From assembly GCA_903842345.1 (NCBI GenBank), contig CAIMLR010000039.1:140268-204267 (forward strand): a stretch of DNA of 64,000 nt. Direction: 5' to 3'. Positions within the stretch are counted from its first letter, which is position 1. Each line of letters begins with the position of its first letter. The translations under genes and the position numbers were made by a program. The DNA comes from an uncultured Myxococcales bacterium (GTDB lineage: Bacteria > Myxococcota_A > UBA9042). The notes below the pieces were generated by a model, which was not told the DNA's origin, made no database searches, and worked only from the letters and a program-made list of their open reading frames with translations. Shown here piece by piece: positions 21,375 through 35,361 of this stretch.

Positions 21375-21396
21375 GCCAACCTCCGCCTGCCGCGTT

Positions 21397-22230
<834 letters not shown>

Positions 22231-22233
22231 TGT

Positions 22234-23202
22234 TTACGCTCCTGCCGCGGCGGGCAAGGCAGGCTCACTCGGCCAGGCCCGACCGCGCACCAGCACCCAG
22301 CCCGACCACACGAGCAGCGGGAGGCTGATGAGCTGGGACGTCGAAAGCAGGCCGAACCACTCGCCGCGGTCGTCGGCGCGCAGGAACTCCACGCTGAAAC
22401 GAAACAGGGCGTAGAGCAACATGAACAGGAAGAAAATCTGCCCGTCAAAGCGCGGACCCTTGCGGTAGCGCCAGAGACAGATGAGGAAAATCACCGCACA
22501 AGCCAGCGCTTCGTACAATTGCGTCGGGTGGACCGGCAGCGATTGCACCGCGCTTGTTGTGATCTGATGCAGGTGAACCTGCTTGTCCCACGCCGGTGAA
22601 TACTTGGGAAACGCCAGCGCGGTCGGGGCTTGGCTCGTTTCGCCAAAGCAGCAGCCGGCAAGCAGGCAGCCGATGCGGCCAAACACGAGGCCGAGCGCGA
22701 TGGCCCACCCGGCGAGGTCGGCGACCTTCCACATGGACACGCGGCGACGGCGGAGGAACCAGAGGCCGGTCGGGACAGCCGCGAGGAAGCCGCCATAGTA
22801 GGCGTAGCCGCCGTACCAAATCTTGAGGACGCGCAGGCAGTCCTGCTGCTGGCGACAGAGGCCGCTCGAGGTCTCGCAGAGGTCGCCCAGCCCCGCGCGC
22901 ACGCACTGATCCGCGTCTGCGCAGTGCACGCCCGGTCCAAGCGCAAGCCCCGGCACCTGGCTCGGGTCGGTGCACAGGTGCACGTAGTCCATGAACTGGC
23001 CGTCGGCGATCACGTGCAGTGCCCGCGCGCCGACGAGGCCCATGACGAGCATCAGCAGGCCAAGATCGAGGATCGTGTTGCCGTCCAGGCCCTTGCGCAT
23101 TCCCTCGGCATGCGCCAGCAAGATCGCCAGCGTGAACCCGACCATCAGCAGCGTGAAATACGCCGGCAACTGGACGAAACCGAGGTCAAAGCTAGGGTGC
23201 AC
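22234..23202 (-). CDS. lgt: Prolipoprotein diacylglyceryl transferase Lgt, with a roughly 55-aa Cys-rich insertion.
   Basis: Lgt signatures (GRIGCLLAGCCFG, HPTQLYEAL, FGLLSTSQLISL). Insertion HLCTDPSQVPGLALGPGVHCADADQCVRAGLGDLCETSSGLCRQQQDC carries 6 Cys. 4-nt overlap with the uppS start. Confidence 0.85.
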   Translation of the reverse strand: MHPSFDLGFVQLPAYFTLLMVGFTLAILLAHAEGMRKGLDGNTILDLGLLMLVMGLVGARALHVIADGQFMDYVHLCTDPSQVPGLALGPGVHCADADQCVRAGLGDLCETSSGLCRQQQDCLRVLKIWYGGYAYYGGFLAAVPTGLWFLRRRRVSMWKVADLAGWAIALGLVFGRIGCLLAGCCFGETSQAPTALAFPKYSPAWDKQVHLHQITTSAVQSLPVHPTQLYEALACAVIFLICLWRYRKGPRFDGQIFFLFMLLYALFRFSVEFLRADDRGEWFGLLSTSQLISLPLLVWSGWVLVRGRAWPSEPALPAAAGA

Positions 23203-23214
23203 CGCAGACCTCGA

Positions 23215-24174
23215 TCACGCCTTGGACGCGGGCGGCGGCGTCTTGGGCTGACGCAGGGAATCGAGCGCGATCAGGATGACACCCACCGTGATGCCGGCAT
23301 CCGCAATGTTCCAGACCGGCCAGCCGTGCAAGCCCGGGCCAAAGGTCCGGCCCCAGAAGCTGGCGTCGTCAAACACCACGTAGTTGAAGATGAAGTCGAC
23401 AACTGCGCGGTAGTGGATGCGGTCGATCAGGTTGCCGATCGCGCCGCCGAGGATGCCCGCGAGCGCCCAGGTGGAGAGCACGCTCGCCATCTTGCGCTGC
23501 CAAAGCACCCACGCCATGACAAGGGACGCGATTGTCGAAATGCTGACAAACAAGACGAAGCGGACAATCGGCGGGGACGTGGCGAGGAACGACCACGCCG
23601 CGCCAAAGTTCTCCGCGTAGACGAGCGAGAAGCCGTCACAGATACGGATCGAGTGATCGCGCACGGCGACAAGTTCATCGGCCGCGATCGGTGTCGTCGG
23701 CTCGTCGATGCGCGCGTTGTTGCGCCACGCGGTCTGCAGCAGACCCGGCACGTCCGCAGGATCGACGCGCCAAGCCGTCGCCAGCAGGTCGTCCAGCGGC
23801 TGCCCCAAGTCCTGCGGCATCGGCCGCCAACGCCGCGGCGCGAGCAGCCCCGTGCCGCCGAGGGTCACAAGTTCCAGCGACAGGTCGGTCGCGGCAATCA
23901 CGTGTTTGGCGTCCAGGCCATGCACCGGCTGGTAGCGGGTCACCTGCCCGCCGTGGACGGTGTCGGCGATCTCCTGCGCGGACCAGCCCTTGGCTTGGAG
24001 CGCCGCCTGCACGGTCGCGCCATCGCTTTGCCGGAGCACGAGTGGATGCACGGCCGAGGCCAACGTCGTCGCCGCCCAGTACTTGCTGGCCAGATCGAGC
24101 ACCAGCACGATCACAACAAGGGCGAAAGGACCGATGCGCGGGAGTTTCTTGGAATGGGATTCAGCGCGCGTCAT
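23215..24174 (-). CDS. lspA: Lipoprotein signal peptidase LspA (signal peptidase II), unusually long (about 320 aa) with a roughly 170-aa periplasmic insertion after TM1.
   Basis: C-terminal half carries LspA motifs (FSLVYAENFGAAWSF, GNLIDR, WPVWNIADAGITVG). Start assumed at the Met at 24174 (MTRAESHSKKLPRIGPFALVVIVLV); the ORF extends to 24228. Confidence 0.75.
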   Translation of the reverse strand: MTRAESHSKKLPRIGPFALVVIVLVLDLASKYWAATTLASAVHPLVLRQSDGATVQAALQAKGWSAQEIADTVHGGQVTRYQPVHGLDAKHVIAATDLSLELVTLGGTGLLAPRRWRPMPQDLGQPLDDLLATAWRVDPADVPGLLQTAWRNNARIDEPTTPIAADELVAVRDHSIRICDGFSLVYAENFGAAWSFLATSPPIVRFVLFVSISTIASLVMAWVLWQRKMASVLSTWALAGILGGAIGNLIDRIHYRAVVDFIFNYVVFDDASFWGRTFGPGLHGWPVWNIADAGITVGVILIALDSLRQPKTPPPASKA

Positions 24175-24278
24175 AGCGTCTCCGGCAATCGGGTTGCGCA
24201 CAATAGGTGGCCGGGCGATCCACGTCAACGTTGCAACCGCCGACTGCGGGCCCTACGCTTCTGCCCCCGGAGGTTCCT

Positions 24279-25160
24279 GTGCACGTCCTGACTGGTAGTT
24301 CCTGTCCGCATCCGTTTATTTCCGCGGCGTGCCCGCTGTGCCGCGGGAGCGATGCGCCTGGGCGCGTGGAAGCGCTCGCGACGGCGGCGGCAGTGGCGGC
24401 GGCCATTGACGCCGCGGCCGGTCAGCCGGAGATCGTGCTCCGCGATGGCGATCTGCTTTCCCGACCGGAGGCGCTGGATCTGCTGCAGCACGCGCGCCAG
24501 ACCGCCAAGGCCGTCGAACTGTGGACGTCCGGCCTGATGCTGGCGCGTCCCGGCGTGGTGGAAGCGGTGCTGCGCTCGGGCGTGACGATGGTCGCGCTGC
24601 CCCTTTACGGCGATTCCGCGGAGGCGCACGACTGGGTGACAGGCCAGCCCGGGCATTTTCAGCGCGTGATTGCCGGCCTGAAGCGGGTGCGCGCGCTGGG
24701 CGGCAAGACTGCGGTCATCGCGCCGATCCTGCGGCCGACGTTTCGGACACTGCCGTTGCTCGTCCAGAAGTCGCTGGCGCTGGACGTCGCGGCGTTCCGG
24801 TTTGTCGCCCTGCCCGGGCCGGATCGCGTGGGACAGCCGCTGCTGCCGTCGCTGGAGATGGCCGCGCCCTACTTGCGCCAGGCGCTGCAGATGACCGCCG
24901 CAGCCAAGAAACGCAGCAGCGTGCTCGATGTGCCTGCGTGCCTGTTGGGCGACCGCGCCGCGGATGCAGCCAAGGAGGCCGCGGTATCCGTCGTGGCGGA
25001 AGGTGCGGCCAAACACGCGCGCGAGCACGGGCCACAGTGCGACGCGTGCACGTGGCGCGCGGGTTGCCCGGGCCTCCTGACCGCGACGGCAGAGCGCTTT
25101 GGCTGGGCCGGCATCGCGGCGCGGACCGACCCGCCGCCGACCGCGAAAGTCTTGAAATAG
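24279..25160 (+). CDS. Radical-SAM-like protein (paralog of the next two rSAM genes) with a non-canonical Cys motif CX8CX2C. Possibly a divergent or inactive partner.
   Basis: GTG at 24279 preceded by GGAGG (24269-24273) gives MHVLTGSSCPHPFISAACPLC. It aligns with rSAM1 (VRVTRLCNQRCTFC) and rSAM2 (VRHCNQNCGFC), including the shared LPLYGDSAEAHDWVTGQPGHF / SMHGHTAHIHDKLTGTPGAF / SIHSHKHKLEDFLTGTPGSL block and the C-terminal CDACTWRAGCPG motif. The longer ORF starts at GTG 24207. Confidence 0.55.
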   Translation: MHVLTGSSCPHPFISAACPLCRGSDAPGRVEALATAAAVAAAIDAAAGQPEIVLRDGDLLSRPEALDLLQHARQTAKAVELWTSGLMLARPGVVEAVLRSGVTMVALPLYGDSAEAHDWVTGQPGHFQRVIAGLKRVRALGGKTAVIAPILRPTFRTLPLLVQKSLALDVAAFRFVALPGPDRVGQPLLPSLEMAAPYLRQALQMTAAAKKRSSVLDVPACLLGDRAADAAKEAAVSVVAEGAAKHAREHGPQCDACTWRAGCPGLLTATAERFGWAGIAARTDPPPTAKVLK

Positions 25161-25277
25161 CATCACTTTTCGCTGACCGCTTGCGATACGGGGCAAAACC
25201 GCCAAACTGCTGGGCGCGACCAGCCCGTCCCCCCAGGTGTCGTCAGCCTTAGCCATTCGTTCGCAAGCGAGTCCTTC

Positions 25278-27230
25278 ATGCCTGAAAACGAGATCCGCGG
25301 CGACGCGACGACCCTTGAAATTGACATCGACAAGCTGGTGCGCGACGGCATCCTGAACCGCGACGAAGCCGAAGCGTTGCGCGCGACGGAGTTGGCCGAA
25401 GGCACGCGCATGGAAGCGCTGCCGTCCGGCGATGGCGAGAACAAGGACGCAGTCAAAGAAGCCGCGATGAAGCACAAGCGCCACTGGGTGCGCGTGACGC
25501 GGCTCTGCAACCAGCGCTGTACGTTCTGCCTGGATTCGATGAACCAGGACGGCACGATGATCGACGTCGAGTCGCTCAAAGCCTACATCGCGCTGGGTCG
25601 GCGCATGGGCCGGGAACGGCTCATCCTGTCTGGCGGCGAGGCCAGCGTGCATCCGCAGTACGTGGAGCTGATCCGCTACGGCAAGTCACTCGGCTACGAC
25701 TGGATCCAGACGATCACCAACGGCATGATGTTCAGCTACAAGCGCTTCGCCAACGCGTGCGCGGAAGCCGGCCTGAACGAAGCCACCGTTTCCATGCACG
25801 GCCACACCGCGCACATCCACGACAAGCTGACGGGCACGCCCGGCGCGTTCGTCACCGGCATCAAGGGCATCCAGAACCTGTGGGAGACCGGCAAGGTCGT
25901 CGTCAACATCGACGTGGTCATCAACAAGCAGAACTACAAGCAGCTGCCTGAGATCCTGGAGTATTACTACAACCTCGGCATTCGCGAGTTTGACCTCCTG
26001 CACATCATTCCGTTTGGCCGCGGCTTTGACGAGCACCGCCACTCGCTGTTTTTTGACCTGAACGACGCCGTGCCGTACTTCCGCCGCGCGTTCAAGCTCG
26101 CGGACCGCGAGGGCGTGTACCTGTGGACCAATCGCCTGCCGGTCATGTACCTGGAAGGTTTTGAGCGGCTCATCCAGGACCCGCACAAGCTGCTGAGCGA
26201 ATTTGACGGCGGCCGCCACAATTTTGAAGGCTTCCTGCGCAAGGGCCTCAAGCCCGACTGCTGGGGCGAGCGCTGCGACTACTGCTTCCTCGACGGTCCG
26301 TGCCGCAGCACGATGTTCCCGTACCGGGAAATGCTGGAATCCCACACGTTCCCGCTGGTGCGCGTGGACAGCCAGCACGTCTGGCAGGGCACGGAAGCGA
26401 AAGCCAAGTTTGAAGCGCAGCAGCCGCAGCGGCTGTGGCTGACGGCGCGCGATGCGGAGGATGCCAAGGCGGCGCTGGCGCGTTCGGCGCATCCGGCCGC
26501 AGACGTGACGCTGCAGTTGGACGCGGGCGCGGATCCCCAGCCGCTGCTGAAGCATCCGCCGCGCGAGATCAAGCGCTTTGTGGTGACGACGACCGACGAC
26601 GCGGCACGCTATTTGGTGGGCGCGCATGCGATTCCGGCGCCGACGGAAGTGGAAGTGATGCTGACGCGCGAGCTGGCCTCGTGGCTGCTGGCGCGACCGG
26701 CGACGCTCAAGGCGTGGGGTACGCGGTTGATCGCGACGCTCAAGACGCACGAGTACCTGTCCGAGTCGCAGGCGGAAGATCCGGATCCGGCGACGCTCCG
26801 CAAGTTGGCCCAGGCCGGCCTGCGCATGCGCAACGTGACGCGCTGCGTGGCGGGCGCGGAGACCGAGCCGGGCGACATCAAGCTGCTGGATGCGACGCTG
26901 CTGGACGGCGCGGGCTTCCTCAACCTGGACAAGTACGTCGGCCATTACGTGGAGCACGCGTACTACAGCAAGTCGATCCGCTGCGGCCGGTGCTCGCAGT
27001 TTGAAACCTGCCAGGGCACGCACATCAACTACCTGCGCAGCCACGGTTTTGCGATCCAGACGCCGCTCGATGAAGCCGGCAAGCCGCTGCCCGACGCCGC
27101 GAGCTTTGACCGCTTGACGGAGCAGTTGGCCGACGCCAATGCCCAGCGCACCAAGCGCGAGCAGCAGCGCACGGTCGGGTTGCACAAGCCCAAGGCGATT
27201 GGCGAACTGGGCATCGGCCGCGAGACCTGA
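25278..27230 (+). CDS. Radical SAM enzyme (650 aa) with a roughly 300-aa C-terminal extension carrying two extra CxxCx5C motifs.
   Basis: Canonical CNQRCTFC cluster-binding motif followed by the SAM-binding LILSGGEASVHP motif. Additional CDYCFLDGPC and CGRCSQFETCQG motifs. An alternative start lies at the Met at 25467 (MKHKRHWVRVTRLCN). Confidence 0.8.
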   Translation: MPENEIRGDATTLEIDIDKLVRDGILNRDEAEALRATELAEGTRMEALPSGDGENKDAVKEAAMKHKRHWVRVTRLCNQRCTFCLDSMNQDGTMIDVESLKAYIALGRRMGRERLILSGGEASVHPQYVELIRYGKSLGYDWIQTITNGMMFSYKRFANACAEAGLNEATVSMHGHTAHIHDKLTGTPGAFVTGIKGIQNLWETGKVVVNIDVVINKQNYKQLPEILEYYYNLGIREFDLLHIIPFGRGFDEHRHSLFFDLNDAVPYFRRAFKLADREGVYLWTNRLPVMYLEGFERLIQDPHKLLSEFDGGRHNFEGFLRKGLKPDCWGERCDYCFLDGPCRSTMFPYREMLESHTFPLVRVDSQHVWQGTEAKAKFEAQQPQRLWLTARDAEDAKAALARSAHPAADVTLQLDAGADPQPLLKHPPREIKRFVVTTTDDAARYLVGAHAIPAPTEVEVMLTRELASWLLARPATLKAWGTRLIATLKTHEYLSESQAEDPDPATLRKLAQAGLRMRNVTRCVAGAETEPGDIKLLDATLLDGAGFLNLDKYVGHYVEHAYYSKSIRCGRCSQFETCQGTHINYLRSHGFAIQTPLDEAGKPLPDAASFDRLTEQLADANAQRTKREQQRTVGLHKPKAIGELGIGRET

Positions 27231-27233
27231 CCG

Positions 27234-27668
27234 TTACGGCCAACTGTCGTCGTTGGGCCAATCGGCAAAATACACGCCCGGTGGCCACCCTTGGGCTGGC
27301 ACGCGCTGCTTCAGGCACTTCGCCACGCCTTCAGGCACCTGCACATCGGTCATCGCGAACACGGTCGTCGCCAGCGCGTCGCCCTTGGCCTCGATCGAAA
27401 TACCCAAGCTCATCGGCCTCTCCGTCGGGTAGCCCAAGCCGTGAAAACAGTCCCGCAACGGCCGCAGGTGCGCGCGCGTGAGCGTTTCGTCCATGAGCTG
27501 GGGCGCCGGTTGCGGCGGGCGTTTGGCGGCGACGACGGGCGCCACCGCGTTGGGCTGCGACCCGGTCGGCTCGTTGCGGCACGACGTCAGGACGCTGGTC
27601 ATGGCCAACAGGCACAGCCACACGAACAGGTGCGGCTTGCGGCGGAAACTCGGGCGCGTGGGGAACAT
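27234..27668 (-). CDS. Small putative lipoprotein (144 aa) encoded on the opposite strand inside the rSAM cluster.
   Basis: ATG at 27666-27668 with GGAG 8 nt upstream on the minus strand. Signal peptide plus lipobox (LFVWLCLLAMTSVLTS|C). It exactly fills the 630-nt gap between rSAM1 and rSAM2. Confidence 0.45.
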   Translation of the reverse strand: MFPTRPSFRRKPHLFVWLCLLAMTSVLTSCRNEPTGSQPNAVAPVVAAKRPPQPAPQLMDETLTRAHLRPLRDCFHGLGYPTERPMSLGISIEAKGDALATTVFAMTDVQVPEGVAKCLKQRVPAQGWPPGVYFADWPNDDSWP

Positions 27669-27860
27669 GGGCCAACTCCAGCCAAGTGCGGCTGGAAAAA
27701 GTCTGCGCCTGCGGGCAAGCCAAGGTCAAGATCGCGTGCCGCCGCTCAACACCCACGGCAAAACAGTGAGTTGGCGGACGAAGCGTGCAGTCGGGCAAAA
27801 AATCCGGCACACTGCCGGTTCGCGCCCGTTCCCCCGAACCTGCGCCAACGGAGTCGTTCA

Positions 27861-29129
27861 ATGGCCAACATCGGCTACATCCAGATGGTCCGGCACTGCA
27901 ACCAGAATTGCGGCTTTTGCTCCAATCCTGAGACGCCGTTCTTCCACAACCTGGAGCAGATCCACCAGATCGTCGACGACTTTGTCAGCCGCGACTACTT
28001 TGGCGTCATCATGACCGGCGGCGAGCCGACGCTTTCGCCCATCCTGCCAGAAGCCATCGCCCACGCGCGCGCCAACGGCCTGCACGTGCGCATGATCACC
28101 AATGGCCAGAAGCTCGCCGATTGGGACTACTGCAAGTCGCTGGCCGACGCCGGGCTGCAACACGTCCACGTGTCCATCCACAGCCACAAGCACAAGCTGG
28201 AGGATTTCCTGACCGGCACGCCTGGCTCGCTGGATTGGGCGGAGAAGGCGCTGACCAACCTCGGCAAGACCAACATCACCGTCAACATCAACACGGTCAT
28301 TACCCGCTACAATTGCGACCACTTGCACGGCAACATCGAGTGGTTCATCAAGAACTTCCCGTTCATCCAGCACTTCGTGTGGAACAACCTGGACCCGTCG
28401 ATCGGTCGCGCGACCAGCAACCAGTACTTTGCCGCGCGCCTGCAGGACATTGAAGTCAGCCTGTCCAAGGCGATGCGGATGCTGGCGGAGACGGGTCGGT
28501 CGTTCCGCGTGGAGCGCGTGCCGCTGTGCTACATGACGGAATTCGCCCACTGCTCGACCGAGACGCGCAAGATCGTCAAGAGCGAGGAGCGCATCGTCCA
28601 CTTCCTGGACAACAAGGGCACGGTCCGCCAGACCGAGTGGGGCCACCTGTACGCGGACGTGTGCAACGCGTGCAGCCTGCGGTCCATTTGCGGCGGGCTG
28701 TTTGACCGCGGCAACGCCTACGATCCTGCGGAACTGTCGCCGATCTTCCAGGATCCCAAGCCGATCATCTCGCGCATCGTCCAGGATTTGCAGTCGGACC
28801 CGGCATGGCGGATGGCCAAGTTCAAGAACCTGGCGGCGATCCCGGCGGCGCATCAGGGCAAATCGGGGACGCAGCAGAGCGTCGCGGGCGGTGAAGTGTC
28901 GCGCCCGGGCAAGGTGCAGGCGCCGACTGGCGAACGGCTGACGGAAATGGCCATGGACCCCAAGCGCAAGACCGATCACACGGCGCGCGATTGGACGCCC
29001 GAGGCGGCGGGCTGGCATCCGTCGGACGATGAAGACGACGTGGACACCGGGCTCGTCGTGCCCCCTGAGCCGATCGCGAGCGGACGGGTGCCGGTGACGC
29101 GCCTTGAAGTTCGATCCGGACAAGAGTAG
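27861..29129 (+). CDS. Radical SAM enzyme (422 aa), paralog of rSAM1.
   Basis: ATG at 27861 with GGAG 8 nt upstream. MANIGYIQMVRHCNQNCGFC (CxxxCxxC), VIMTGGEPTLSP, shared SIHSHKHKLEDFLTGTPG block, C-terminal CNACSLRSICGG motif. The longer track ORF from 27291 is upstream read-through. Confidence 0.8.
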   Translation: MANIGYIQMVRHCNQNCGFCSNPETPFFHNLEQIHQIVDDFVSRDYFGVIMTGGEPTLSPILPEAIAHARANGLHVRMITNGQKLADWDYCKSLADAGLQHVHVSIHSHKHKLEDFLTGTPGSLDWAEKALTNLGKTNITVNINTVITRYNCDHLHGNIEWFIKNFPFIQHFVWNNLDPSIGRATSNQYFAARLQDIEVSLSKAMRMLAETGRSFRVERVPLCYMTEFAHCSTETRKIVKSEERIVHFLDNKGTVRQTEWGHLYADVCNACSLRSICGGLFDRGNAYDPAELSPIFQDPKPIISRIVQDLQSDPAWRMAKFKNLAAIPAAHQGKSGTQQSVAGGEVSRPGKVQAPTGERLTEMAMDPKRKTDHTARDWTPEAAGWHPSDDEDDVDTGLVVPPEPIASGRVPVTRLEVRSGQE

Positions 29130-29216
29130 AAGCTGGGGCGCGCGCATTTTCGGCCGACCCCCGCCGAATCAGCGATCGCCCTCCCGCATCCGGGGCATTT
29201 TGCACTACTGGAGTAC

Positions 29217-29663
29217 ATGAGCATGGGCCACCCTCAGATTGAAAAACTCGACCCGAAGACACACACGATGACGCTGTCGCTCGACATCGGCTTGTATCCG
29301 GCTGACGTGCTGTATGCCGCCGCGTACGTCTTCCTCGACCGCGCGTACGTGCTGCTTGACCGCGCCGGTCCGCGCTACGAAGTGCATCTCCGCGGCAAAG
29401 GCGAGCTGACGGAAGCGCAGCTGACGGCGATGTCCGGTGAATTCGAGAACGAGCTGCTCGCTCAGGCGCTGCGTCGCAAGGTCGTCAAGGCCAACCAGAA
29501 GATCATCGAAGACATCACGAGCCAGGCCATTGCGGGCGCGGCCGGCGGCACGCTGCCGACCGACTTCCTCGCGGCGGGCGACGACGGCATGGACTTTCTG
29601 GACGATCCGCTGGGGATCGCCGTGCCGTGGGAAGACAAGTTCAAGAAGAAGAAAGACGCCTGA
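29217..29663 (+). CDS. Small acidic protein (148 aa) with a Lys-rich C-terminal tail (…PWEDKFKKKKDA). Paralog of the next gene. Candidate substrate or accessory protein of the rSAM cluster.
   Basis: ATG with GGAG 5 nt upstream. Its core aligns with the following small protein. No Cys residues. Tail rich in K and aromatic residues. Confidence 0.6.
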   Translation: MSMGHPQIEKLDPKTHTMTLSLDIGLYPADVLYAAAYVFLDRAYVLLDRAGPRYEVHLRGKGELTEAQLTAMSGEFENELLAQALRRKVVKANQKIIEDITSQAIAGAAGGTLPTDFLAAGDDGMDFLDDPLGIAVPWEDKFKKKKDA

Positions 29664-29722
29664 CCCGTCCAACAAATGCCCGCGTTTCCAAACGGTTCGG
29701 ACTTTTCTCAGGAGTTCTTCGC

Positions 29723-29962
29723 ATGAGCCATGTCACACACCAGTCGGTCAAGTTGCACCGCACGCTGTACATGCAGCAGGCGGTGAAGGATGCGGCGACC
29801 ACGTTTGCCGATTTTGCCGCGTTCACCATCAAGCGCGATGGCGACTACTACGCCGTGGACATCAAGGACATTGATCCGGACGTCGACGGCGACGTGGTGG
29901 CCGAGTTCTGCAACTTCGCGCTGGCCAACACGGCCGGTCGCAAGAAAACCAAGAAAGCCTAG
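29723..29962 (+). CDS. Small protein (79 aa), paralog of the previous gene, also ending in a Lys-rich tail (…ANTAGRKKTKKA).
   Basis: ATG at 29723 with AGGAG at 29711-29715. Alignment LYMQQAVKDAATTFADFAAFTIKRDGDYYAVDIKD versus LYPADVLYAAAYVFLDRAYVLLDRAGPRYEVHLRG. The longer track ORF from 29627 overlaps the upstream gene. Confidence 0.55.
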   Translation: MSHVTHQSVKLHRTLYMQQAVKDAATTFADFAAFTIKRDGDYYAVDIKDIDPDVDGDVVAEFCNFALANTAGRKKTKKA

Positions 29963-29992
29963 GCGCGCAAGCAGCCACAGGAGCCAACACGT

Positions 29993-31555
29993 ATGACAGC
30001 GACCACGCTTCAGACCAAAAGCCAGAAGCACGATCTGCTGCCCAAAGGCAAACAGGTTGATCTGACGAAGATTTCCAGCCCCGGCCGCTGGAAGCCTGAG
30101 TTTGCGGTGCCGTTCAACCAGCGGCAGCTCGGCACGAAGATTCTGATTTCCAACGACATGGGCGATTGGGACCTGCTGACGCAGGACGAATTCCGCGACT
30201 TCATCGAGGGCAAGCCGCTGCCGGGCGAGCCGCTGTACGAGAAGCTCAAGGCGCGCAATTTCATCGCCAAGGAAATCAACGTCGCGGAGCAGGCGGAGCG
30301 CTGGAAACGCAAGAAGCAGTACCTGTTCTACGGCCCGACGCTGCACGCGTTTGTGCTGACGCATCGCTGCAACCACGGTTGCCAGTACTGCCACAGCTCG
30401 ATCGTGGGCATGGACCGCAAAGACACGGACATGTCGATCGAGACGGCGGAGCGCGCGGTTGACCTCGTGTTCCAGACGACGAGCCCGGGCATCACCATCG
30501 AGTTCCAGGGCGGCGAGCCGACCGCGAACTGGGAAGTCCTGCAGCACATCGTCGAGTACGCGCGGCAGAAGAACGCGCTGGCCAACAAGGCGCTGTCGTT
30601 CGCCCTGGTGACGAATCTGTCGCTGATGGACGACGAGAAGATGGAGTACCTGCTCGATCGCAAAGTGCAGATCTGCACGAGCCTCGACGGTCCCGCGGAT
30701 TTGCACAACAAGATCCGCATCTTCAAGGACGGCAACAGTCAGGAAACCCTGATGTACTGGATGAAGCGGATCAACGCGCGCTACGGCGAGCTTGGCCTCG
30801 ACACCAACCTGTACCGCGTGGAAGCGCTGCCGACGATCACCAAGCCGAGCCTGCATCGGTGGAAGGAAATCGTCGACACGTACGTGGAAGCCGGCTGCAA
30901 GGCGGTGTTCCTGCGCAAGCTCGACCCGTTCGGATTTGCGGAGCGCACGGCCAAGACGTTGGGCTACTCGATGGACGACTTCCTCGAGTTCTACGCCCAC
31001 GCCGTGGACTACATCATCGAACTGAACCGCAACGGCACGCAGGTGATGGAGCGGCACGCGTCGATCATGCTGAACAAGATCCTCGCGGATCAGGAGCCCA
31101 ACTACCTGGACTTGCGGACGCCCGGTGGCGCGTGCATCGGCCAGCTGGGCTACGCGCCGGACGGCAACGTCTACTCGAGCGATGAAGGCCGCTTCGTCGC
31201 CGCGATGGGCGATGAGATGTTCAAGATCGGCACGGTCGACGACACGTACCACCACCTGATGACCAACGCGCAGACCCGCGCGATGGTGATGGCGGGCTTG
31301 AACGACGCGCAGCCGGATTGCGTGAGCTGCGTGTACAAGCCGTGGTGCGGCCAGCAGGTCGAGTACAACTACAAGACCCAGGGCTCGCTGCACGGCCACA
31401 TGCGGGATTCCGTGTGGTGCAAGAAGCACAAGTCGATCTTCGACTACCTGATGTACAAGCTGGAAAACGCCGACGAGAAGGACATGGAAATGTTCCGCCG
31501 TTGGACGACGAACCGGCAGCTTGAGCACTTCCTGCAGGAACGCGCCCCGCTGTGA
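29993..31555 (+). CDS. Radical SAM/SPASM-domain maturase (anSME-like) with a roughly 110-aa N-terminal extension.
   Basis: GGAG 9 nt upstream of the ATG. HRCNHGCQYC (CxxxCxxC), IEFQGGEPT, and a C-terminal SPASM-like region (GGACIGQLGYAPDGNVYSSDEG … CVSCVYKPWCGQQ … C). The antisense ORF 29708..31873 is rejected. Confidence 0.85.
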   Translation: MTATTLQTKSQKHDLLPKGKQVDLTKISSPGRWKPEFAVPFNQRQLGTKILISNDMGDWDLLTQDEFRDFIEGKPLPGEPLYEKLKARNFIAKEINVAEQAERWKRKKQYLFYGPTLHAFVLTHRCNHGCQYCHSSIVGMDRKDTDMSIETAERAVDLVFQTTSPGITIEFQGGEPTANWEVLQHIVEYARQKNALANKALSFALVTNLSLMDDEKMEYLLDRKVQICTSLDGPADLHNKIRIFKDGNSQETLMYWMKRINARYGELGLDTNLYRVEALPTITKPSLHRWKEIVDTYVEAGCKAVFLRKLDPFGFAERTAKTLGYSMDDFLEFYAHAVDYIIELNRNGTQVMERHASIMLNKILADQEPNYLDLRTPGGACIGQLGYAPDGNVYSSDEGRFVAAMGDEMFKIGTVDDTYHHLMTNAQTRAMVMAGLNDAQPDCVSCVYKPWCGQQVEYNYKTQGSLHGHMRDSVWCKKHKSIFDYLMYKLENADEKDMEMFRRWTTNRQLEHFLQERAPL

Positions 31556-31590
31556 ACCCGTCGCGCGCGCTGGTGCGTTGGCGGCTGTTT

Positions 31591-31607
31591 TGGGGCGCAT
31601 CCGGCCG
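31591..31607 (+). terminator. GC-rich hairpin (CCGGCCG-AAG-CGGCCGG) 36 nt after the SPASM gene stop. Candidate intrinsic terminator of the cluster.
   Basis: 7-bp perfect stem with a 3-nt loop, read from the sequence. No U-tract, as is usual in high-GC genomes. Confidence 0.3.
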
Positions 31608-31755
31608 AAGCGGCCGGACCGGGCTCTAGTCCGGGTGGGGTGCTGACGCACGCACCCGGACCGGAGACTCGCTGCGCGAGCCTCCGCGCATTCGCGTGAC
31701 GATCCCTCGCGCAGGGCGCGGGTGACGTCGCGGTGAGCGCCACGCCCTTGGCCGC

Positions 31756-32841
31756 GTGCCCTGCTCCACGGAGGACGCCTTGCTGCTCGGCGCAAAACAC
31801 CCAGGCATCCATATCCTCGGCTCCTGGCGCGGGCTCTCCGTCCACGCGCTCGGTTTTGGCCGCGTCTGGGCAAGTCGCGGCGGGCGCCTGTACACGCGCG
31901 CGCTCGCCGGTGGCCCGTGGCAGCTGCAGGATCGCCTGCCTGAACCGGCGTGGCAGCGTTTGCTCGGCCGGTCGGCGTTTGTCGGTCAGGCGCTCCGGAT
32001 CGGCATTCACGGCGTGCTGCCGCTGACCGATCGGGCGCAGCTTGTGGTCGCGACCGGGCGGCTGTGGCGCGTTGAGGATGGCCGTTGGCACGAGGCGTTG
32101 CCGTTTGACTTCCGCAAGCCCGCGCGACTGGGCGTCCTTCGCAGCGCGGAAGGCCAAGTCTATTGCGCCGAGTACACGCTCAATCCGCGCCGCGACCGCG
32201 CCATCCGCCTCTGGCGCTCTGACGATGGCGCCCGCAGCTTCCAGCAAGTCTTCGCGTTTGCCGCGGGTCAGGTCCGCCACATCCACTTCATCCAGCAGGA
32301 TCCGGTGGACGGCTCGCTGTGGCTCGGCACGGGCGATCGCGACGCCGAAAGCGCGATCTGGCGCTCCACGGATCGCGCCGCGAGCTGGCAAGTCATCGGC
32401 GGCGGCAACCAGTCCTGGCGGGCCATCGGCGTGGCGTTCCTGCCCGACGCGGTCATCTGGGGCACCGACGCCGGCAGCGACGCCGGGCGATTCCAGAACG
32501 TCGCGTTGCGCTGGGACCGCCAGACGCGCGCGTTGACGACCCTCGGGCGCCTGCAGGGCCCCGTGCACGGCATCACCGCGCTGGCGGACGGCGGCGTGCT
32601 CTTGTCGACCGGCTGCGAAGGCGGCGTCAACGAGACCGACCGCCGCGTGCACCTCTGGGCCATCCACAGCGGTAAAGGTCCGCAGGAAATCGCCAGCTTT
32701 GCCGCAGGTCTGCAACCCAAACGCGCGCAGTACCCCGTGCTGCACTGCGCCCAAGGGCAAGAGCAAAGCGACCACGTCTGGCTCGTCGGCCGCGGTCTGT
32801 TGGCCAGTCCGCTTGTGGCGCTGGAAATCGCGGTCCGCTGA
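31756..32841 (+). CDS. BNR/Asp-box repeat protein (sialidase-like beta-propeller), hypothetical.
   Basis: Asp-box motifs SxDxGxxW/F: RSDDGARSF, RSTDRAASW. The antisense 443-aa ORF is rejected. Confidence 0.55.
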   Translation: MPCSTEDALLLGAKHPGIHILGSWRGLSVHALGFGRVWASRGGRLYTRALAGGPWQLQDRLPEPAWQRLLGRSAFVGQALRIGIHGVLPLTDRAQLVVATGRLWRVEDGRWHEALPFDFRKPARLGVLRSAEGQVYCAEYTLNPRRDRAIRLWRSDDGARSFQQVFAFAAGQVRHIHFIQQDPVDGSLWLGTGDRDAESAIWRSTDRAASWQVIGGGNQSWRAIGVAFLPDAVIWGTDAGSDAGRFQNVALRWDRQTRALTTLGRLQGPVHGITALADGGVLLSTGCEGGVNETDRRVHLWAIHSGKGPQEIASFAAGLQPKRAQYPVLHCAQGQEQSDHVWLVGRGLLASPLVALEIAVR

Positions 32842-32889
32842 ACTTCGCGCGCTGGCACAGATGTGTCACACTCGGCGCGGAGGTGTCCT

Positions 32890-34206
32890 GTGGCTTATCG
32901 CGCTGTTGAGATCATTGCCCGCAAACGGGACGGCCACGTGCTGGACGGCGACGAGATCCGCTGGCTCATCGCCGGATTCACCGACGGCAGCGTGCCCGAC
33001 TACCAAATGGCGGCATTTGCCATGGCCGTCTACTGGCGCGGCATGACGCCGCAGGAGACCGCCGCGCTCCTGGACGCGATGGAACGCTCGGGCGACGTCG
33101 TGCGCTGGCCGAACCTGCCATGGCCGACCGCGGACAAGCACTCGACCGGCGGCGTGGGCGACAAAGTGTCGATTCCGCTCGCCCCCGCCGTGGCCGCATG
33201 CGGCGTCGCGGTGCCGATGATTTCCGGCCGCGGCCTGGGCCATACCGGCGGGACGCTCGACAAGCTGGAGTCCATTCCGGGCTTCAACGTGCGCCTCGAC
33301 CTCGCGGCGTTTGACGCGATGGTGCGGCAAATCGGTGTCAGCCTGATTGGCCAAACGGATCGCCTCGTGCCGGCCGACAAGAAGCTCTACGCGCTGCGCG
33401 ACGTGACCGCGACGGTGGAGAGCATTCCGCTGATCACGGCGTCGATCCTGTCCAAGAAGCTGGCGGAGGGCGTGGGCGCGCTCGTGATGGACGTGAAGGT
33501 CGGCTCCGGCGCGTTCATGAAGAATCGCGAGGCGGCGCTGGCGCTGGCGCAATCGCTCGTCGGTGCCGGAACGGCCGCGGGTCGCAAGGTGACGGCGTTC
33601 CTGACCGCGATGGATCGGCCGCTGGGCACGCACATCGGCAACGCGCTGGAGATCGTCGAGTCCATCGAGATCCTGCGCGGCGGCGGTCCGGCGGATACGC
33701 GCGCGCTGACGGTGCGCCTGGGCGGTGAAATGCTGCGGCTGTGCGGCGTGGCGGCGACGCTGGAAGCGGGCGAGGCGCAAATTGCCGCGGCGCTTGACGA
33801 TGGGCGGGCGCTGGCGAAATTCCGCGAACTCGTGGCCGCGCACGGTGGCGACCCGCGCGTGTGCGATGCGCCCGAGGACGTGCTGCCCAAGGCGCCGTTT
33901 GTCGCGCCGCTGCTGGCGTGGCAGGACGGCATCGTGCAGCAGATGGACGCGTGGCTGATCGGCGTGGCGGCGGTGCACCTCGGCGCGGGTCGCAATACCG
34001 CCGCAGATGCCGTGGATCCAGCGGTCGGCTTTGTGCTGGCCAAAAAGCCCGGTGATGCCGTGCGCGCGGGCGATCCGCTCGTGTACGTGCATGCGCGCAC
34101 GCCGGCGCAGCGGGACACGGCGCTTGAACAACTGCGCGCGGCGATTGCCATCGACAAAGGCGCGCCGACGCTGATGCCGCTTTGGCTGGACGTCGTCACG
34201 GCGTAG
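32890..34206 (+). CDS. deoA: Thymidine phosphorylase / pyrimidine-nucleoside phosphorylase.
   Basis: KHSTGGVGDKVS, GHTGGTLDKLESIPGF, and an LIGQT motif. GTG at 32890 preceded by GGAGG; the longer ORF starts at GTG 32863. Confidence 0.85.
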   Translation: MAYRAVEIIARKRDGHVLDGDEIRWLIAGFTDGSVPDYQMAAFAMAVYWRGMTPQETAALLDAMERSGDVVRWPNLPWPTADKHSTGGVGDKVSIPLAPAVAACGVAVPMISGRGLGHTGGTLDKLESIPGFNVRLDLAAFDAMVRQIGVSLIGQTDRLVPADKKLYALRDVTATVESIPLITASILSKKLAEGVGALVMDVKVGSGAFMKNREAALALAQSLVGAGTAAGRKVTAFLTAMDRPLGTHIGNALEIVESIEILRGGGPADTRALTVRLGGEMLRLCGVAATLEAGEAQIAAALDDGRALAKFRELVAAHGGDPRVCDAPEDVLPKAPFVAPLLAWQDGIVQQMDAWLIGVAAVHLGAGRNTAADAVDPAVGFVLAKKPGDAVRAGDPLVYVHARTPAQRDTALEQLRAAIAIDKGAPTLMPLWLDVVTA

Positions 34207-34218
34207 GAGGGGGCACGC

Positions 34219-35358: not shown

Positions 35359-35361
35359 TTC

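What the first reader, a model, noticed from the sequence alone, without database searches (positions are those of the whole stretch)
24279..31607. Compact cluster of four radical-SAM-family genes (three mutual paralogs plus one SPASM/anSME-like) with two paralogous small Lys-tailed proteins: candidate uncharacterized peptide/protein-modification system
Seen in the sequence: seven genes sit on one strand between lspA and a BNR protein, with one small lipoprotein antisense in the only large gap. rSAM1 (CNQRCTFC) and rSAM2 (CNQNCGFC) are canonical radical SAM enzymes. A third protein aligns to them along its length but carries CPHPFISAACPLC (CX8CX2C). All three share a distinctive block (S[MI]H[GS]H…KL…FLTGTPG[AS]) and a C-terminal CxxCx4-5C-G motif. 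The fourth enzyme is anSME-like (CNHGCQYC plus a SPASM-type C-terminus) with a 110-aa N-terminal extension. Between rSAM2 and the SPASM enzyme sit two small Cys-free paralogs ending in KKKKDA / RKKTKKA. Every gene has a GGAG-type Shine-Dalgarno sequence, and a GC hairpin follows the last gene. Established knowledge: several rSAM/SPASM maturases next to small ORFs is the hallmark of RiPP or protein-cofactor maturation loci (e.g. PQQ, mycofactocin, the Hxs system with paired rSAMs HxsB/HxsC plus small HxsD). Inference: none of the known systems fits. There is no PqqA- or MftA-like peptide, no His-Xaa-Ser repeat protein, no sulfatase. This may therefore be an undescribed maturation system. It sits beside lgt-lspA and a giant lipoprotein, and could act on lipoproteins or secreted proteins.
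Basis: partly seen in the sequence, partly recalled or inferred. Interest (0 to 1): 0.85.

Follow-up and report, generated by a model that had tools for sequence, protein, structure and literature searches.

The report
HxsA-less variant of Hxs radical-SAM system
This gene cluster is not an unknown system: it is a divergent, chromosomally fixed branch of the His-Xaa-Ser (Hxs) radical-SAM protein-maturation machinery, whose E. coli form was shown in 2026 to block phage DNA entry, but here it has three HxsC-like enzymes, two HxsD-type adaptors and no target protein encoded nearby.

Summary
The cluster is real. Six co-directional genes (24279-31555) are conserved as a block in more than 12 lineages of Myxococcales-type MAGs, all under purifying selection.

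The reading "none of the known systems fits" is wrong for three genes, which pass NCBIfam's curated cut-offs:
- The SPASM-like enzyme is HxsB (515 bits, cut-off 370).
- The 148-aa protein is HxsD (56.8, cut-off 50).
- The 79-aa protein is the HxsD-like family NF038315 (68, cut-off 41).

The three paralogous radical-SAM proteins are nearest to HxsC/HxsC4 but fall far below their cut-offs. One of them (G1) is degenerating: its CX8CX2C motif is lost in several orthologues, while its C-terminal four-Cys motif is invariant.

Relatives in Binatia-like bacteria and Omnitrophota keep the same HxsD/HxsD-like/HxsB trio. They add 5 to more than 9 radical-SAM paralogues and a His-Gly-Ser repeat peptide (NCBIfam HxsA4). 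No such peptide is encoded in the 64-kb window or near any Myxococcales-type locus.

The locus lies divergent from lgt-lspA in housekeeping synteny, not on a mobile element.

Verdict: an uncharacterised variant of a known kind. The substrate is probably unlinked, and the biological role (defence or envelope physiology) is open.

The parts
24279..25160 (+). G1: degenerate HxsC-like (pseudo-)radical-SAM protein, 293 aa. It has CX8CX2C in place of CX3CX2C, DGD in place of the GGE motif, and an invariant C-terminal four-Cys motif (C221, C254, C257, C263).
   Evidence: Pfam Radical_SAM scores 27 bits, below the 29.5 gathering score. The best NCBIfam hits (TIGR04053, HxsC4, HxsC) are far below their cut-offs. 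In the orthologue alignment the N-terminal Cys triad is lost in L008, L016 and L007, but the C-terminal Cys are invariant. Among family representatives, about 8 carry CX8CX2C, 8 or more have no triad, and all full-length ones carry CX2CX5C. dN/dS is 0.16-0.23.
25278..27230 (+). G2: HxsC-like radical-SAM enzyme, 650 aa. It has CNQRCTFC, a first four-Cys motif (C328/333/336/342), and a 300-aa C-terminal extension that ends in a second four-Cys motif (C523/569/572/578).
   Evidence: NCBIfam HxsC4 scores 98 bits (cut-off 500) and HxsC 82.5 bits (cut-off 268). All the listed Cys are invariant in 8 orthologues. The C-terminal domain resembles G1 and G2N only at the CxxCx5CxG...GF/GW motif. dN/dS is 0.06-0.08.
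27234..27668 (-). Antisense 144-aa lipoprotein gene (lipobox LTSC) in the G2-G3 gap. It is a lineage-specific insertion and not part of the conserved system.
   Evidence: GC3 of 0.87 indicates a coding sequence. It is found only in the close relatives L001-L004. In L010, L011, L013, L015 and L022, G2 and G3 lie 40-90 bp apart. dN/dS is 0.21-0.38. It matches no family.
27861..29129 (+). G3: HxsC-like radical-SAM enzyme, 422 aa, with CNQNCGFC, a GGE motif and C-terminal C268/271/277. Of the three paralogues it is the closest to HxsC.
   Evidence: TIGR03977 HxsC scores 107 bits (cut-off 268) and HxsC4 88 bits. It is 48% identical to the third radical-SAM protein of the five-paralogue loci. It is absent from L027, L028 and L031. 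dN/dS is 0.05-0.06.
29217..29663 (+). G4: HxsD, 148 aa. An HxsD domain (residues 7-108) is followed by a disordered linker, a conserved C-terminal motif FLDDPLGIAVPWE and a Lys tail.
   Evidence: TIGR03976 scores 56.8 bits against a cut-off of 50. Orthologues carry Pfam PF27806 HxsD and are named HxsD by PGAP and JGI. The AlphaFold model has pLDDT 83.5 with a bb-a-bb-a-a core. The tail motif is conserved from Omnitrophota to Myxococcales. dN/dS is 0.015-0.05.
29723..29962 (+). G5: HxsD-like protein, 79 aa (NF038315), a paralogue of the HxsD domain, with a basic tail.
   Evidence: NF038315 scores 68.2 bits against a cut-off of 41. It always lies between HxsD and HxsB in related loci. dN/dS is 0.02-0.05.
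29993..31555 (+). G6: HxsB, 520 aa. It has an RRE-like N-terminal domain (about residues 40-108), a radical-SAM core (CNHGCQYC) and a SPASM/twitch-like C-terminus (C443, C446, C452, C476).
   Evidence: TIGR03978 scores 515 bits against a cut-off of 370. The AlphaFold model has pLDDT 81.5 and pTM 0.84 with a beta3-alpha3 N-terminal domain. The best PDB match is CteB 5wgg (E = 1.5e-20, 495 aligned columns), followed by anSMEcpe. Homologues labelled Binatia, Acidobacteriota and Myxococcales are 73-81% identical.
31568..31618 (+). End of the operon: a terminator-like stem with a T-run (31568-31583 plus GCTGTTTTGG) followed by an 8-bp GC hairpin.
   Evidence: Found by the terminator scan and the fold. 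Neither is statistically unusual in this GC-rich DNA.
22234..24228 (-). lgt (22234-23202) and lspA (23215-24228), divergent from G1. They are conserved neighbours of the cluster in this lineage; a functional link is not shown.
   Evidence: Pfam LGT and Peptidase_A8. The same divergent arrangement occurs in L001, L003, L004, L010, L013, L015, L022 and L027-L032.

Best explanation
The locus encodes the enzymatic half of a His-Xaa-Ser (Hxs) type radical-SAM maturation system. It belongs to the multi-paralogue branch that NCBIfam labels with HxsA4, HxsC4 and 'HxsD-like'.

**Shown**
- G6 is HxsB. Its architecture (RRE-like domain, radical-SAM core, auxiliary-cluster domain) is that of a leader-dependent peptide maturase.
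- G4 is HxsD and G5 is an HxsD-like paralogue.
- G2 and G3 are catalytically intact HxsC-like radical-SAM enzymes, each with an auxiliary four-Cys motif.
- G1 is a paralogue whose SAM-cluster motif is decaying while its auxiliary-cluster motif is kept.

**Inferred**, by analogy with E. coli HXS, where HxsC binds HxsD and HxsB, HxsC and HxsD together install a +8 Da change in an S-H-x-S-S motif before export
- The two HxsD-type proteins act as adaptors for the HxsC-like enzymes.
- HxsB captures the leader of a ribosomally made His/Ser-repeat peptide or protein.
- The radical-SAM enzymes modify the repeats in succession.
- G1 serves as a non-catalytic scaffold or electron-transfer subunit.

**Substrate and role.** In this Myxococcales lineage the substrate gene is not in the operon and is most likely encoded elsewhere in the genome. 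The fixed chromosomal position, strong purifying selection and neighbourhood (lgt-lspA, plus two small outer-membrane-like proteins in sister lineages) point to a product that works in the cell envelope. Whether its role is phage exclusion or physiology is not determined.
For: **Family assignment**
- HxsB, HxsD and HxsD-like score above the curated cut-offs.
- The HxsC-like paralogues have HxsC or HxsC4 as best or near-best hits.

**Relatives with the same trio**
- The HxsD/HxsD-like/HxsB trio occurs with 5 radical-SAM paralogues and an aKG-HExxH peptide hydroxylase in L016 and L024.
- It occurs with 9 or more radical-SAM genes and HxsA4 in the Omnitrophota locus L020.
- Leader-plus-HGS-repeat peptides lie near the trio in L006 and L007. 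The L006 peptide scores 130.8 bits on NF038313, cut-off 55.

**Structure**
- The HxsB model has an RRE-like beta3-alpha3 domain and matches CteB over its full length.

**E. coli mechanism**
- The E. coli mechanism and the HxsC-HxsD complex are described in PMC13128918.

**Conservation**
- Synteny is conserved.
- dN/dS is 0.015-0.08 for five genes and 0.16-0.23 for G1.
Against: - No HxsA, HxsA2 or HxsA4-like ORF lies in 64 kb or within 10 kb of the HxsB or G2 match in any Myxococcales-type locus. The central prediction of an HxS-repeat substrate is therefore unverified for this genome.
- G1, G2 and G3 fail the HxsC and HxsC4 cut-offs by a wide margin.
- Canonical HxsC is only about 17-20% identical to them, and canonical HxsD gives no blastp hit to G4 or G5.
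- The gene order differs from the D-B-C-A order seen in 99.6% of described systems.
- The pairing of the HxsD-type proteins with particular radical-SAM enzymes, and the role of G1, are inferences only.
Confidence: 0.6

Rival explanations
1. It is an antiphage defence system working like E. coli HXS. [quoted passage not shown]
For: HxsB and HxsD are homologous to components of the only Hxs system tested experimentally, which is a defence system (PMC13128918).
Against: - No effector gene (HxsA) is present.
- The neighbourhood is housekeeping: cdsA, lgt, lspA, thymidine phosphorylase.
- Synteny is stable across lineages down to 60% lgt identity. Canonical Hxs, in contrast, is largely plasmid-borne and conjugative.
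- HxsB is only 35% identical to canonical HxsB.
- The only PADLOC hits are generic viperin radical-SAM matches.
- dN/dS is lower than for lgt.
Confidence: 0.15
2. The machinery has been re-targeted to a substrate without HxS repeats. Candidates are envelope proteins or lipoproteins, the two small outer-membrane-like proteins encoded after HxsB in sister lineages, or the conserved C-terminal tail of HxsD itself (a PQQ- or mycofactocin-like cofactor route).
For: - Divergent adjacency to lspA-lgt is kept in 9 of 10 lineages.
- A pair of signal-peptide proteins ending in YSW/YNW follows HxsB in L008, L010, L011, L013, L015, L027, L028, L030 and L031.
- HxsD has a disordered tail with an almost invariant DDPLGIAVPWE motif that canonical HxsD lacks.
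- HxsB is 73-81% identical across phyla, more like a cofactor enzyme than a RiPP enzyme.
- Some HxsA4 peptides carry lipobox-like sites.
Against: - Adjacency may simply reflect inherited gene order.
- The outer-membrane-like pair is absent from the window and from L022.
- The same HxsD tail is present in loci that do have HxsA4, such as L020 and L007, so the tail is not a replacement for HxsA.
- There is no direct evidence for any such substrate.
Confidence: 0.2
3. It is an entirely undescribed maturation system unrelated to known ones.
For: G1, G2 and G3 meet no curated family cut-off, and no precursor gene is visible.
Against: Three of the six proteins pass the curated Hxs-family models. Orthologues are already annotated HxsB and HxsD in public records. 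Relatives carry HxsA4.
Confidence: 0.02
4. It is a decaying remnant of an Hxs system that lost its substrate and is no longer functional.
For: HxsA is absent. G1 has lost canonical radical-SAM motifs. G3 is missing in some lineages, and G1-G2 are missing upstream of G3 in L005.
Against: All reading frames are intact, with coding GC3 of 0.83-0.90. dN/dS is 0.015-0.08 for G2-G6, lower than for lgt or thymidine phosphorylase. The block is conserved across deep lineages.
Confidence: 0.03

Closest known systems
Canonical HXS antiphage system (hxsD-hxsB-hxsC-hxsA) of E. coli, Klebsiella and Aeromonas (Haft & Basu TIGR03976-03979; Li et al., Nat Commun 2026, PMC13128918)
   Same: - HxsB orthologue above the equivalog cut-off, 35% identical over 90% of its length.
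- HxsD-family small protein.
- HxsC-like radical-SAM partner(s) with a C-terminal CX2CX5C.
- The likely logic is the same: cytoplasmic radical-SAM maturation of a ribosomal protein.
   Different: - No HxsA in the window.
- Three HxsC-like paralogues, none passing the HxsC model and one degenerate, instead of one HxsC.
- An extra HxsD-like protein.
- HxsD carries a 40-aa tail with the DDPLGIAVPWE motif.
- The gene order is C-like x3, then D, D-like, B.
- The locus is chromosomal, in housekeeping synteny, in Myxococcota. The canonical system is mobile or plasmid-borne in Pseudomonadota.
- A defence role has not been tested.
NCBIfam 'type 4' Hxs set (HxsA4 NF038313, HxsC4 NF038332, HxsD-like NF038315), as seen in Omnitrophota (L020) and Binatia-like bacteria (L007, L016, L024)
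   Same: - The same HxsD, HxsD-like, HxsB trio with the same HxsD tail motif. HxsB is 78-81% identical to the Binatia-like ones.
- Several HxsC-like radical-SAM paralogues. G1, G2 and G3 correspond to the first three of the five in L016 (32%, 33% and 48% identity).
   Different: - The window has only 3 paralogues, against 5 to more than 9.
- It lacks the B12-radical-SAM fusion, the aKG-HExxH hydroxylase, the PMT_2-like protein and, above all, the HxsA4 repeat peptide.
- None of its radical-SAM proteins reaches the HxsC4 cut-off.
- This subtype has no experimental or published description that I could find.
RRE-containing radical-SAM/SPASM RiPP maturases (CteB 5wgg, SuiB 5v1q) and anSME (4k37)
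   Same: The HxsB model superposes on CteB over 495 columns, including the N-terminal RRE-like domain. It shares the radical-SAM core and the C-terminal auxiliary-cluster domain.
   Different: - Sequence identity is 14-22%.
- NCBIfam scores for the sactipeptide, ranthipeptide and anSME models are far below their cut-offs.
- Only four conserved auxiliary Cys are present, and Pfam SPASM gives no hit.
- HxsB works together with separate HxsC-like enzymes and HxsD adaptors.
PQQ (PqqE/PqqD/PqqA) and mycofactocin (MftC/MftB/MftA) systems
   Same: A radical-SAM enzyme with an auxiliary cluster is combined with a small accessory protein. Enzyme conservation is very high.
   Different: - PqqE and MftC models score 24-57 bits against cut-offs of 381 and 265.
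- There is no PqqA- or MftA-like peptide.

Membership tests
His-Xaa-Ser (Hxs) system | HxsB radical-SAM maturase (TIGR03978, cut-off 370 bits) | tested here: met
   G6 scores 515.4 bits, covering model positions 2-466 of 466.
His-Xaa-Ser (Hxs) system | HxsD small protein (TIGR03976, cut-off 50 bits; Pfam PF27806) | tested here: met
   G4 scores 56.8 bits. Its orthologues carry PF27806.
His-Xaa-Ser (Hxs) system | HxsC radical-SAM maturase (TIGR03977, cut-off 267.9 bits) | tested here: not met
   G3 scores 107.4, G2 82.5 and G1 43.5 bits. Aeromonas HxsC is 17-20% identical.
His-Xaa-Ser (Hxs) system | HxsA: a protein with His-Xaa-Ser repeats encoded in the operon | tested here: not met
   - No ORF in any of the six frames of the 64-kb window has 3 or more H-x-S in 40 aa.
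- An HxsA4 profile I built finds nothing better than E about 2.
- There is no His-rich ORF in a coding frame.
- The rest of the genome could not be searched.
His-Xaa-Ser (Hxs) system | Gene order hxsD-hxsB-hxsC-hxsA (99.6% of described systems) | tested here: not met
   The order here is G1, G2, G3 (HxsC-like), then HxsD, HxsD-like, HxsB.
His-Xaa-Ser (Hxs) system | Antiphage activity by blocking DNA entry | not testable with these tools
   This needs phage challenge experiments. The genomic context argues against a mobile defence island.
NCBIfam Hxs 'type 4' subfamily | HxsD-like protein (NF038315, cut-off 41 bits) | tested here: met
   G5 scores 68.2 bits.
NCBIfam Hxs 'type 4' subfamily | HxsC4 radical-SAM protein (NF038332, cut-off 500 bits) | tested here: not met
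   G2 scores 98.1, G3 88.5 and G1 46.1 bits. Even the best paralogue in the Omnitrophota locus L020 reaches only 166 bits.
NCBIfam Hxs 'type 4' subfamily | HxsA4 repeat peptide (NF038313, cut-off 55 bits) | tested here: not met
   It is absent from the window. It is present in relatives: L006 scores 130.8 bits, and L007, L019, L020 and L021 also carry it.
Radical SAM superfamily (PF04055) | CX3CX2C cluster motif and a Pfam score at or above 29.5 bits | tested here: met
   G2 scores 60.2, G3 72.0 and G6 56.4 bits, each with CX3CX2C. G1 fails: it scores 27.0 bits, has CX8CX2C, and the motif is not conserved among its orthologues.
SPASM/twitch auxiliary-cluster domain | Seven-Cys SPASM motif (PF13186) or four-Cys twitch motif | tested here: inconclusive
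   - PF13186 gives no hit at E below 0.01.
- HxsB has four invariant C-terminal Cys: 443, 446, 452 and 476.
- G1, G2 and G3 each have one Cys plus CX2CX5C, and G2 has this twice.
- The HxsB fold matches SPASM enzymes. Cluster content needs spectroscopy.
PQQ / mycofactocin / anSME systems | PqqE (cut-off 381), MftC (cut-off 265) and anSME (cut-off 349) equivalog models, plus the cognate precursor or sulfatase | tested here: not met
   Best scores are PqqE 53.8, MftC 53.5 and anSME 80.7 bits. The window has no PqqA- or MftA-like peptide and no sulfatase.
Catalogued antiphage systems (PADLOC-DB 2.0) | A match to a system-specific model | tested here: not met
   Only generic pVip radical-SAM matches appear (34-70 bits), and nothing for G1, G4 or G5. 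The library predates the HXS paper.

The most novel reading that the evidence does not exclude
A vertically inherited, HxsA-less Hxs machinery has been co-opted in this Myxococcota lineage for a housekeeping modification of cell-envelope proteins. The targets would be lipoproteins processed by the adjacent Lgt/LspA, or the small outer-membrane-like proteins encoded after HxsB in sister lineages. The machinery consists of the HxsB, HxsD, HxsD-like trio, two active HxsC-like enzymes and a pseudo-enzyme. This would be a radical-SAM post-translational modification of envelope proteins with no described precedent, and it would show that the Hxs defence system derives from, or gave rise to, a physiological pathway.
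Probability: 0.12. Interest if true: 0.8.

Novelty: new variant of a known kind. Interest (0 to 1): 0.45.

Why it matters
- **Distribution.** The Hxs system was an orphan bioinformatic prediction for 15 years. In 2026 it was shown to be a broad antiphage barrier in E. coli, and it was reported as 99.7% confined to Pseudomonadota, because that survey searched with HxsA. This locus shows a large, deeply conserved HxsB/HxsD branch in MAGs labelled Myxococcota, Binatia, Acidobacteriota and Omnitrophota. That branch escapes such a survey.
- **Architecture.** The branch uses arrays of HxsC-like enzymes, including a pseudo-enzyme, and a second HxsD-type adaptor.
- **Missing target.** In Myxococcales the recognisable target is not encoded nearby, although the genes are under stronger purifying selection than neighbouring housekeeping genes.
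- **What it makes testable.** Which part of Hxs chemistry is core (the trio)? Do HxsD proteins act as enzyme-specific adaptors? Is Hxs machinery always a defence device?

Tried and rejected
1. **Search for the substrate.**
   - H-x-S repeat scan in six frames of the window found none.
   - tblastn with the L006 and L007 HxsA4 peptides found none.
   - My own HMMs of 110 HxsA4 homologues, and of the Binatia-type leader, were run against all ORFs of 25 aa or more in the window and in every locus. They hit only L006, L007, L016 (cut off by the locus end), L019, L020 and L021.
   - A His-density scan found only out-of-frame shadow ORFs.
2. **PADLOC** gave only generic viperin hits.
3. **Rfam** on 19000-36000 found nothing at gathering scores, so there is no riboswitch or leader RNA.
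5. **The G2 C-terminal domain as a duplicated radical-SAM barrel** is not supported. hhalign matches only the terminal Cys motif.
7. **The antisense lipoprotein as part of the system** is rejected. It is lineage-specific and fast-evolving.
8. **The hairpin after G6 as a significant terminator** is not supported statistically.
9. **A literature search** for HxsA4, HxsC4 or HxsD-like found no description beyond the 2026 E. coli paper and passing mentions.

Full report
**1. What is in the sequence**

Between lspA (23215-24228, minus strand) and a 361-aa protein of unclear family lie six co-directional genes.

| Gene | Coordinates | Length | Notable features |
|---|---|---|---|
| G1 | 24279-25160 | 293 aa | GTG start preceded by GGAGG |
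| G2 | 25278-27230 | 650 aa | |
| G3 | 27861-29129 | 422 aa | |
| G4 | 29217-29663 | 148 aa | |
| G5 | 29723-29962 | 79 aa | |
| G6 | 29993-31555 | 520 aa | |

- A 144-aa lipoprotein gene lies antisense in the 630-bp G2-G3 gap.
- GC3 of 0.83-0.90 marks every one of these ORFs as coding.
- GGAG lies upstream of five of the six genes; G2 has only GCGAG.
- A GC hairpin follows G6 but is not statistically unusual.
- Small corrections: there are six plus-strand genes, not seven. G5 has one conserved Cys. G1 shares the 'SxHxH...LTGTPG' block only in degenerate form.

**2. Family assignment**

Three proteins pass NCBIfam's curated cut-offs.

| Gene | Model | Score (bits) | Cut-off |
|---|---|---|---|
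| G6 | TIGR03978 HxsB | 515 | 370 |
| G4 | TIGR03976 HxsD | 56.8 | 50 |
| G5 | NF038315 'HxsD-like protein' | 68.2 | 41 |

For these three proteins that rejection is wrong.
- G1, G2 and G3 are mutual paralogues: blastp gives 4e-21 to 1.5e-7, and hhalign gives 98.5% probability.
- HxsC (TIGR03977) or HxsC4 (NF038332) is the best hit for G2 and G3 and a near-best hit for G1. All fall far below the cut-offs, at most 107 bits against 268 and 500.
- The PQQ, mycofactocin, anSME, sactipeptide and viperin models also fall far below their cut-offs.
- PADLOC gives only generic viperin matches.

**3. What is known about Hxs**

- The only experimental study is Li et al., Nat Commun 2026 (PMC13128918).
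- It shows that the E. coli hxsD-hxsB-hxsC-hxsA operon blocks phage DNA entry.
[quoted passage not shown] - HxsC pulls down HxsD.
- That paper finds 99.7% of systems in Pseudomonadota and 99.6% in the order D-B-C-A.
- Canonical HxsB genes are common on conjugative plasmids and are only about 35% identical to G6.

**4. Related loci**

HxsB conservation and naming:
- HxsB homologues 63-94% identical to G6 are abundant in metagenomes and MAGs labelled Myxococcales, Deltaproteobacteria, Binatia and Acidobacteriota.
- PGAP and JGI already name them HxsB.
- HxsD homologues are likewise already named HxsD.

Myxococcales-type loci:
- The block G1, G2, G3, HxsD, HxsD-like, HxsB recurs in L001-L004, L008, L010, L011, L013, L015, L022, L030 and L032.
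- G3 is missing in L027, L028 and L031. G1-G2 are not upstream of G3 in L005.
- In 9 of 10 such lineages the block is divergent from lspA-lgt (with uppS and cdsA beyond), even where lgt is only 60% identical.
- Most lineages, though not the window or L022, carry two paralogous genes directly after HxsB. These encode proteins of about 200 aa with a signal peptide and a YSW/YNW terminus, resembling outer-membrane barrels. They belong to no known family.

Binatia-like loci (L007, L009, L016, L024):
- They have the same trio preceded by five radical-SAM genes. The first three are orthologous to G1, G2 and G3 at 32%, 33% and 48% identity.
- The trio is followed by an aKG-HExxH peptide beta-hydroxylase (TIGR04267) and, in L016, a PMT_2-like protein.

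Omnitrophota locus (L020):
- The order is HxsD, HxsD-like, HxsB, a 246-aa gene, HxsA4, then at least nine radical-SAM genes.

Other arrangements:
- Lone HxsB genes occur in L018 and L023.
- A simple D-B-A arrangement occurs in L025.

**5. The substrate question**

- L006 and L007 encode peptides of 105-112 aa within 10 kb of HxsB. Each has a conserved leader followed by about 15 His-Gly-Ser repeats ending in GSW.
- The L006 peptide scores 130.8 bits on NF038313 'His-Xaa-Ser repeat protein HxsA4', cut-off 55.
- About 200 such peptides exist in the large protein collection, and PGAP names some of them HxsA4. Their neighbourhoods contain HxsD.
- In the window, repeat scans, tblastn, two custom HMMs and a His-density scan found no such ORF in 64 kb. 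None was found within 10 kb of the HxsB or G2 match in any Myxococcales-type locus.

**6. Anatomy of the proteins**

HxsB (G6):
- The AlphaFold model has pLDDT 81.5 and pTM 0.84.
- It has a three-strand, three-helix N-terminal domain (residues 40-108, pLDDT above 90), typical of RiPP recognition elements.
- Its best solved match is CteB (E = 1.5e-20, 495 aligned columns), followed by anSME.
- The '110-aa extension' is therefore an integral, RRE-like part of the HxsB family. The TIGR03978 model begins at residue 39.
- Only four auxiliary Cys are invariant.

HxsD (G4):
- The AlphaFold model has pLDDT 83.5.
- It is a small alpha/beta sandwich with no specific solved relative and no resemblance to PqqD.
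- Beyond the HxsD domain it has a disordered tail with a nearly invariant FLDDPLGIAVPWE motif. The motif is conserved from Omnitrophota to Myxococcales and is absent from the 96-aa canonical HxsD.

G1:
- Its CX8CX2C motif is retained in some lineages and lost in others, and GGE has become DGD in the window. Its C221/C254/C257/C263 motif is invariant.
- It behaves as a pseudo-radical-SAM subunit that keeps an auxiliary cluster.

G2:
- It carries two invariant four-Cys motifs, one of them at the end of a 300-aa extension of unknown fold.

**7. Selection and context**

dN/dS of the window against L003, L004 and L005:

| Gene | dN/dS |
|---|---|
| HxsD (G4) | 0.015-0.05 |
| HxsD-like (G5) | 0.02-0.05 |
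| G3 | 0.05-0.06 |
| HxsB (G6) | 0.055-0.077 |
| G2 | 0.06-0.08 |
| lgt | 0.10-0.12 |
| G1 | 0.16-0.23 |
| lspA | 0.18-0.19 |

- The small proteins are the most constrained genes in the region. That fits adaptors rather than variable precursor peptides.
- The neighbours are housekeeping genes: cdsA, lgt, lspA, thymidine phosphorylase, 5'-nucleotidase and aldolases.
- There is no Rfam element and no sign of a mobile element.

**8. Interpretation**

- The best-supported reading is an Hxs-type maturation machine of the multi-paralogue ('type 4') branch whose substrate is not encoded locally.
- The family membership of HxsB, HxsD and HxsD-like, and the leader-binding architecture of HxsB, are shown.
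- Three steps are inferred from the E. coli work and from relatives:
  - the adaptor role of the two HxsD-type proteins;
  - sequential action of G2 and G3, with G1 as a scaffold;
  - an unlinked HxS-repeat substrate.
- A defence role is possible, but the fixed housekeeping synteny and slow evolution disfavour it.
- A re-targeted envelope function (lipoproteins, the outer-membrane-like pair, or the HxsD tail) is not excluded and is the most novel option.
- The 'entirely new system' and 'dead remnant' readings are effectively excluded.

**9. Novelty**

- The components are already named in public annotation.
- NCBIfam already distinguishes HxsA4, HxsC4 and HxsD-like, so the kind is known.
- I found no description in the searchable literature of the three-paralogue, HxsA-less, lgt-lspA-linked architecture, of the pseudo-enzyme G1, or of the HxsD tail motif.
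- I rate the finding a new variant of a known kind, of moderate interest.

Noticed in passing
window 5338-19254 (-): A giant 4,639-aa ORF with 24 copies of the MopE-type putative metal-binding motif (PF11617, 662 bits). It has no H-x-S repeats and no evident link to the cluster.
   Followed up: partly
window 23215-24228 (-): The lspA ORF is 337 aa, about twice the usual length. The Peptidase_A8 match covers only residues 195-325, so roughly 140 aa appear to be inserted after the first transmembrane helix. The long form is shared by the Myxococcales-type relatives (alignments from residue about 30-48 to about 336).
   Followed up: no
window 27234-27668 (-): An antisense 144-aa lipoprotein gene (lipobox LTSC) sits in the only large gap of the operon. 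It is present only in the closest relatives and evolves fast (dN/dS 0.21-0.38). In L005, homology to the window begins at this same G2-G3 junction, so the junction may be a rearrangement point.
   Followed up: partly
L010 11579-12955; also L008, L011, L013, L015, L027, L028, L030, L031: Two paralogous genes directly follow HxsB in most Myxococcales-type lineages but not in the window. Each encodes a protein of about 200 aa with a signal peptide and a C-terminal YSW/YNW, resembling an outer-membrane barrel. Neither has a Pfam or NCBIfam family. They are possible substrates or export partners.
   Followed up: partly
window 29580-29620 (G4 residues about 122-135), and all HxsD orthologues of this branch: A nearly invariant C-terminal motif F-L-D-D-P-L-G-I-A-V-P-W-E sits in a predicted disordered tail of HxsD. 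It is conserved from Omnitrophota to Myxococcales and is absent from canonical 96-aa HxsD. It could dock onto the RRE of HxsB or be a modification site.
   Followed up: partly
proteins P0131-P0154 (HxsA4 homologues): Many Omnitrophota-type HxsA4 peptides have a Lys-rich N-terminus, a hydrophobic segment of 14-20 aa, and then 'AQH' or a Cys directly before the repeats. A few are lipobox-like (for example ..ALGAC|SHISHGS and ..SLASC|SHTSHG). This suggests export, and perhaps lipidation, of the repeat peptide.
   Followed up: partly
L018 and L023 (HxsB at 10001-11503 and 10001-11518): HxsB genes 65-69% identical to G6 stand alone beside ileS or a ThiF-like gene, with no HxsD or HxsC-like genes within 10 kb. 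The trio can evidently be split up.
   Followed up: no
L008 (CAMDBH010000033.1) and L013 (CAYHHL010000013.1): These MAG contigs are labelled 'Klebsiella pneumoniae' and 'Enterobacteriaceae'. Both carry the Myxococcales-type block, and L013 also has the lgt-lspA synteny and high GC3. The taxonomic labels look wrong, through mis-binning or mislabelling.
   Followed up: no
There is only an E = 0.01 hit to a 14-residue BNR_6 repeat. It is conserved only in the closest relatives.
   Followed up: partly
L016 5944-8253 and L024 5805-8117: In the five-paralogue loci, one 770-aa protein fuses an N-terminal B12-binding-type radical-SAM region (hits to HpnJ and B12-rSAM models) to an HxsC4-like radical-SAM domain. 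It has no counterpart in the window.
   Followed up: no
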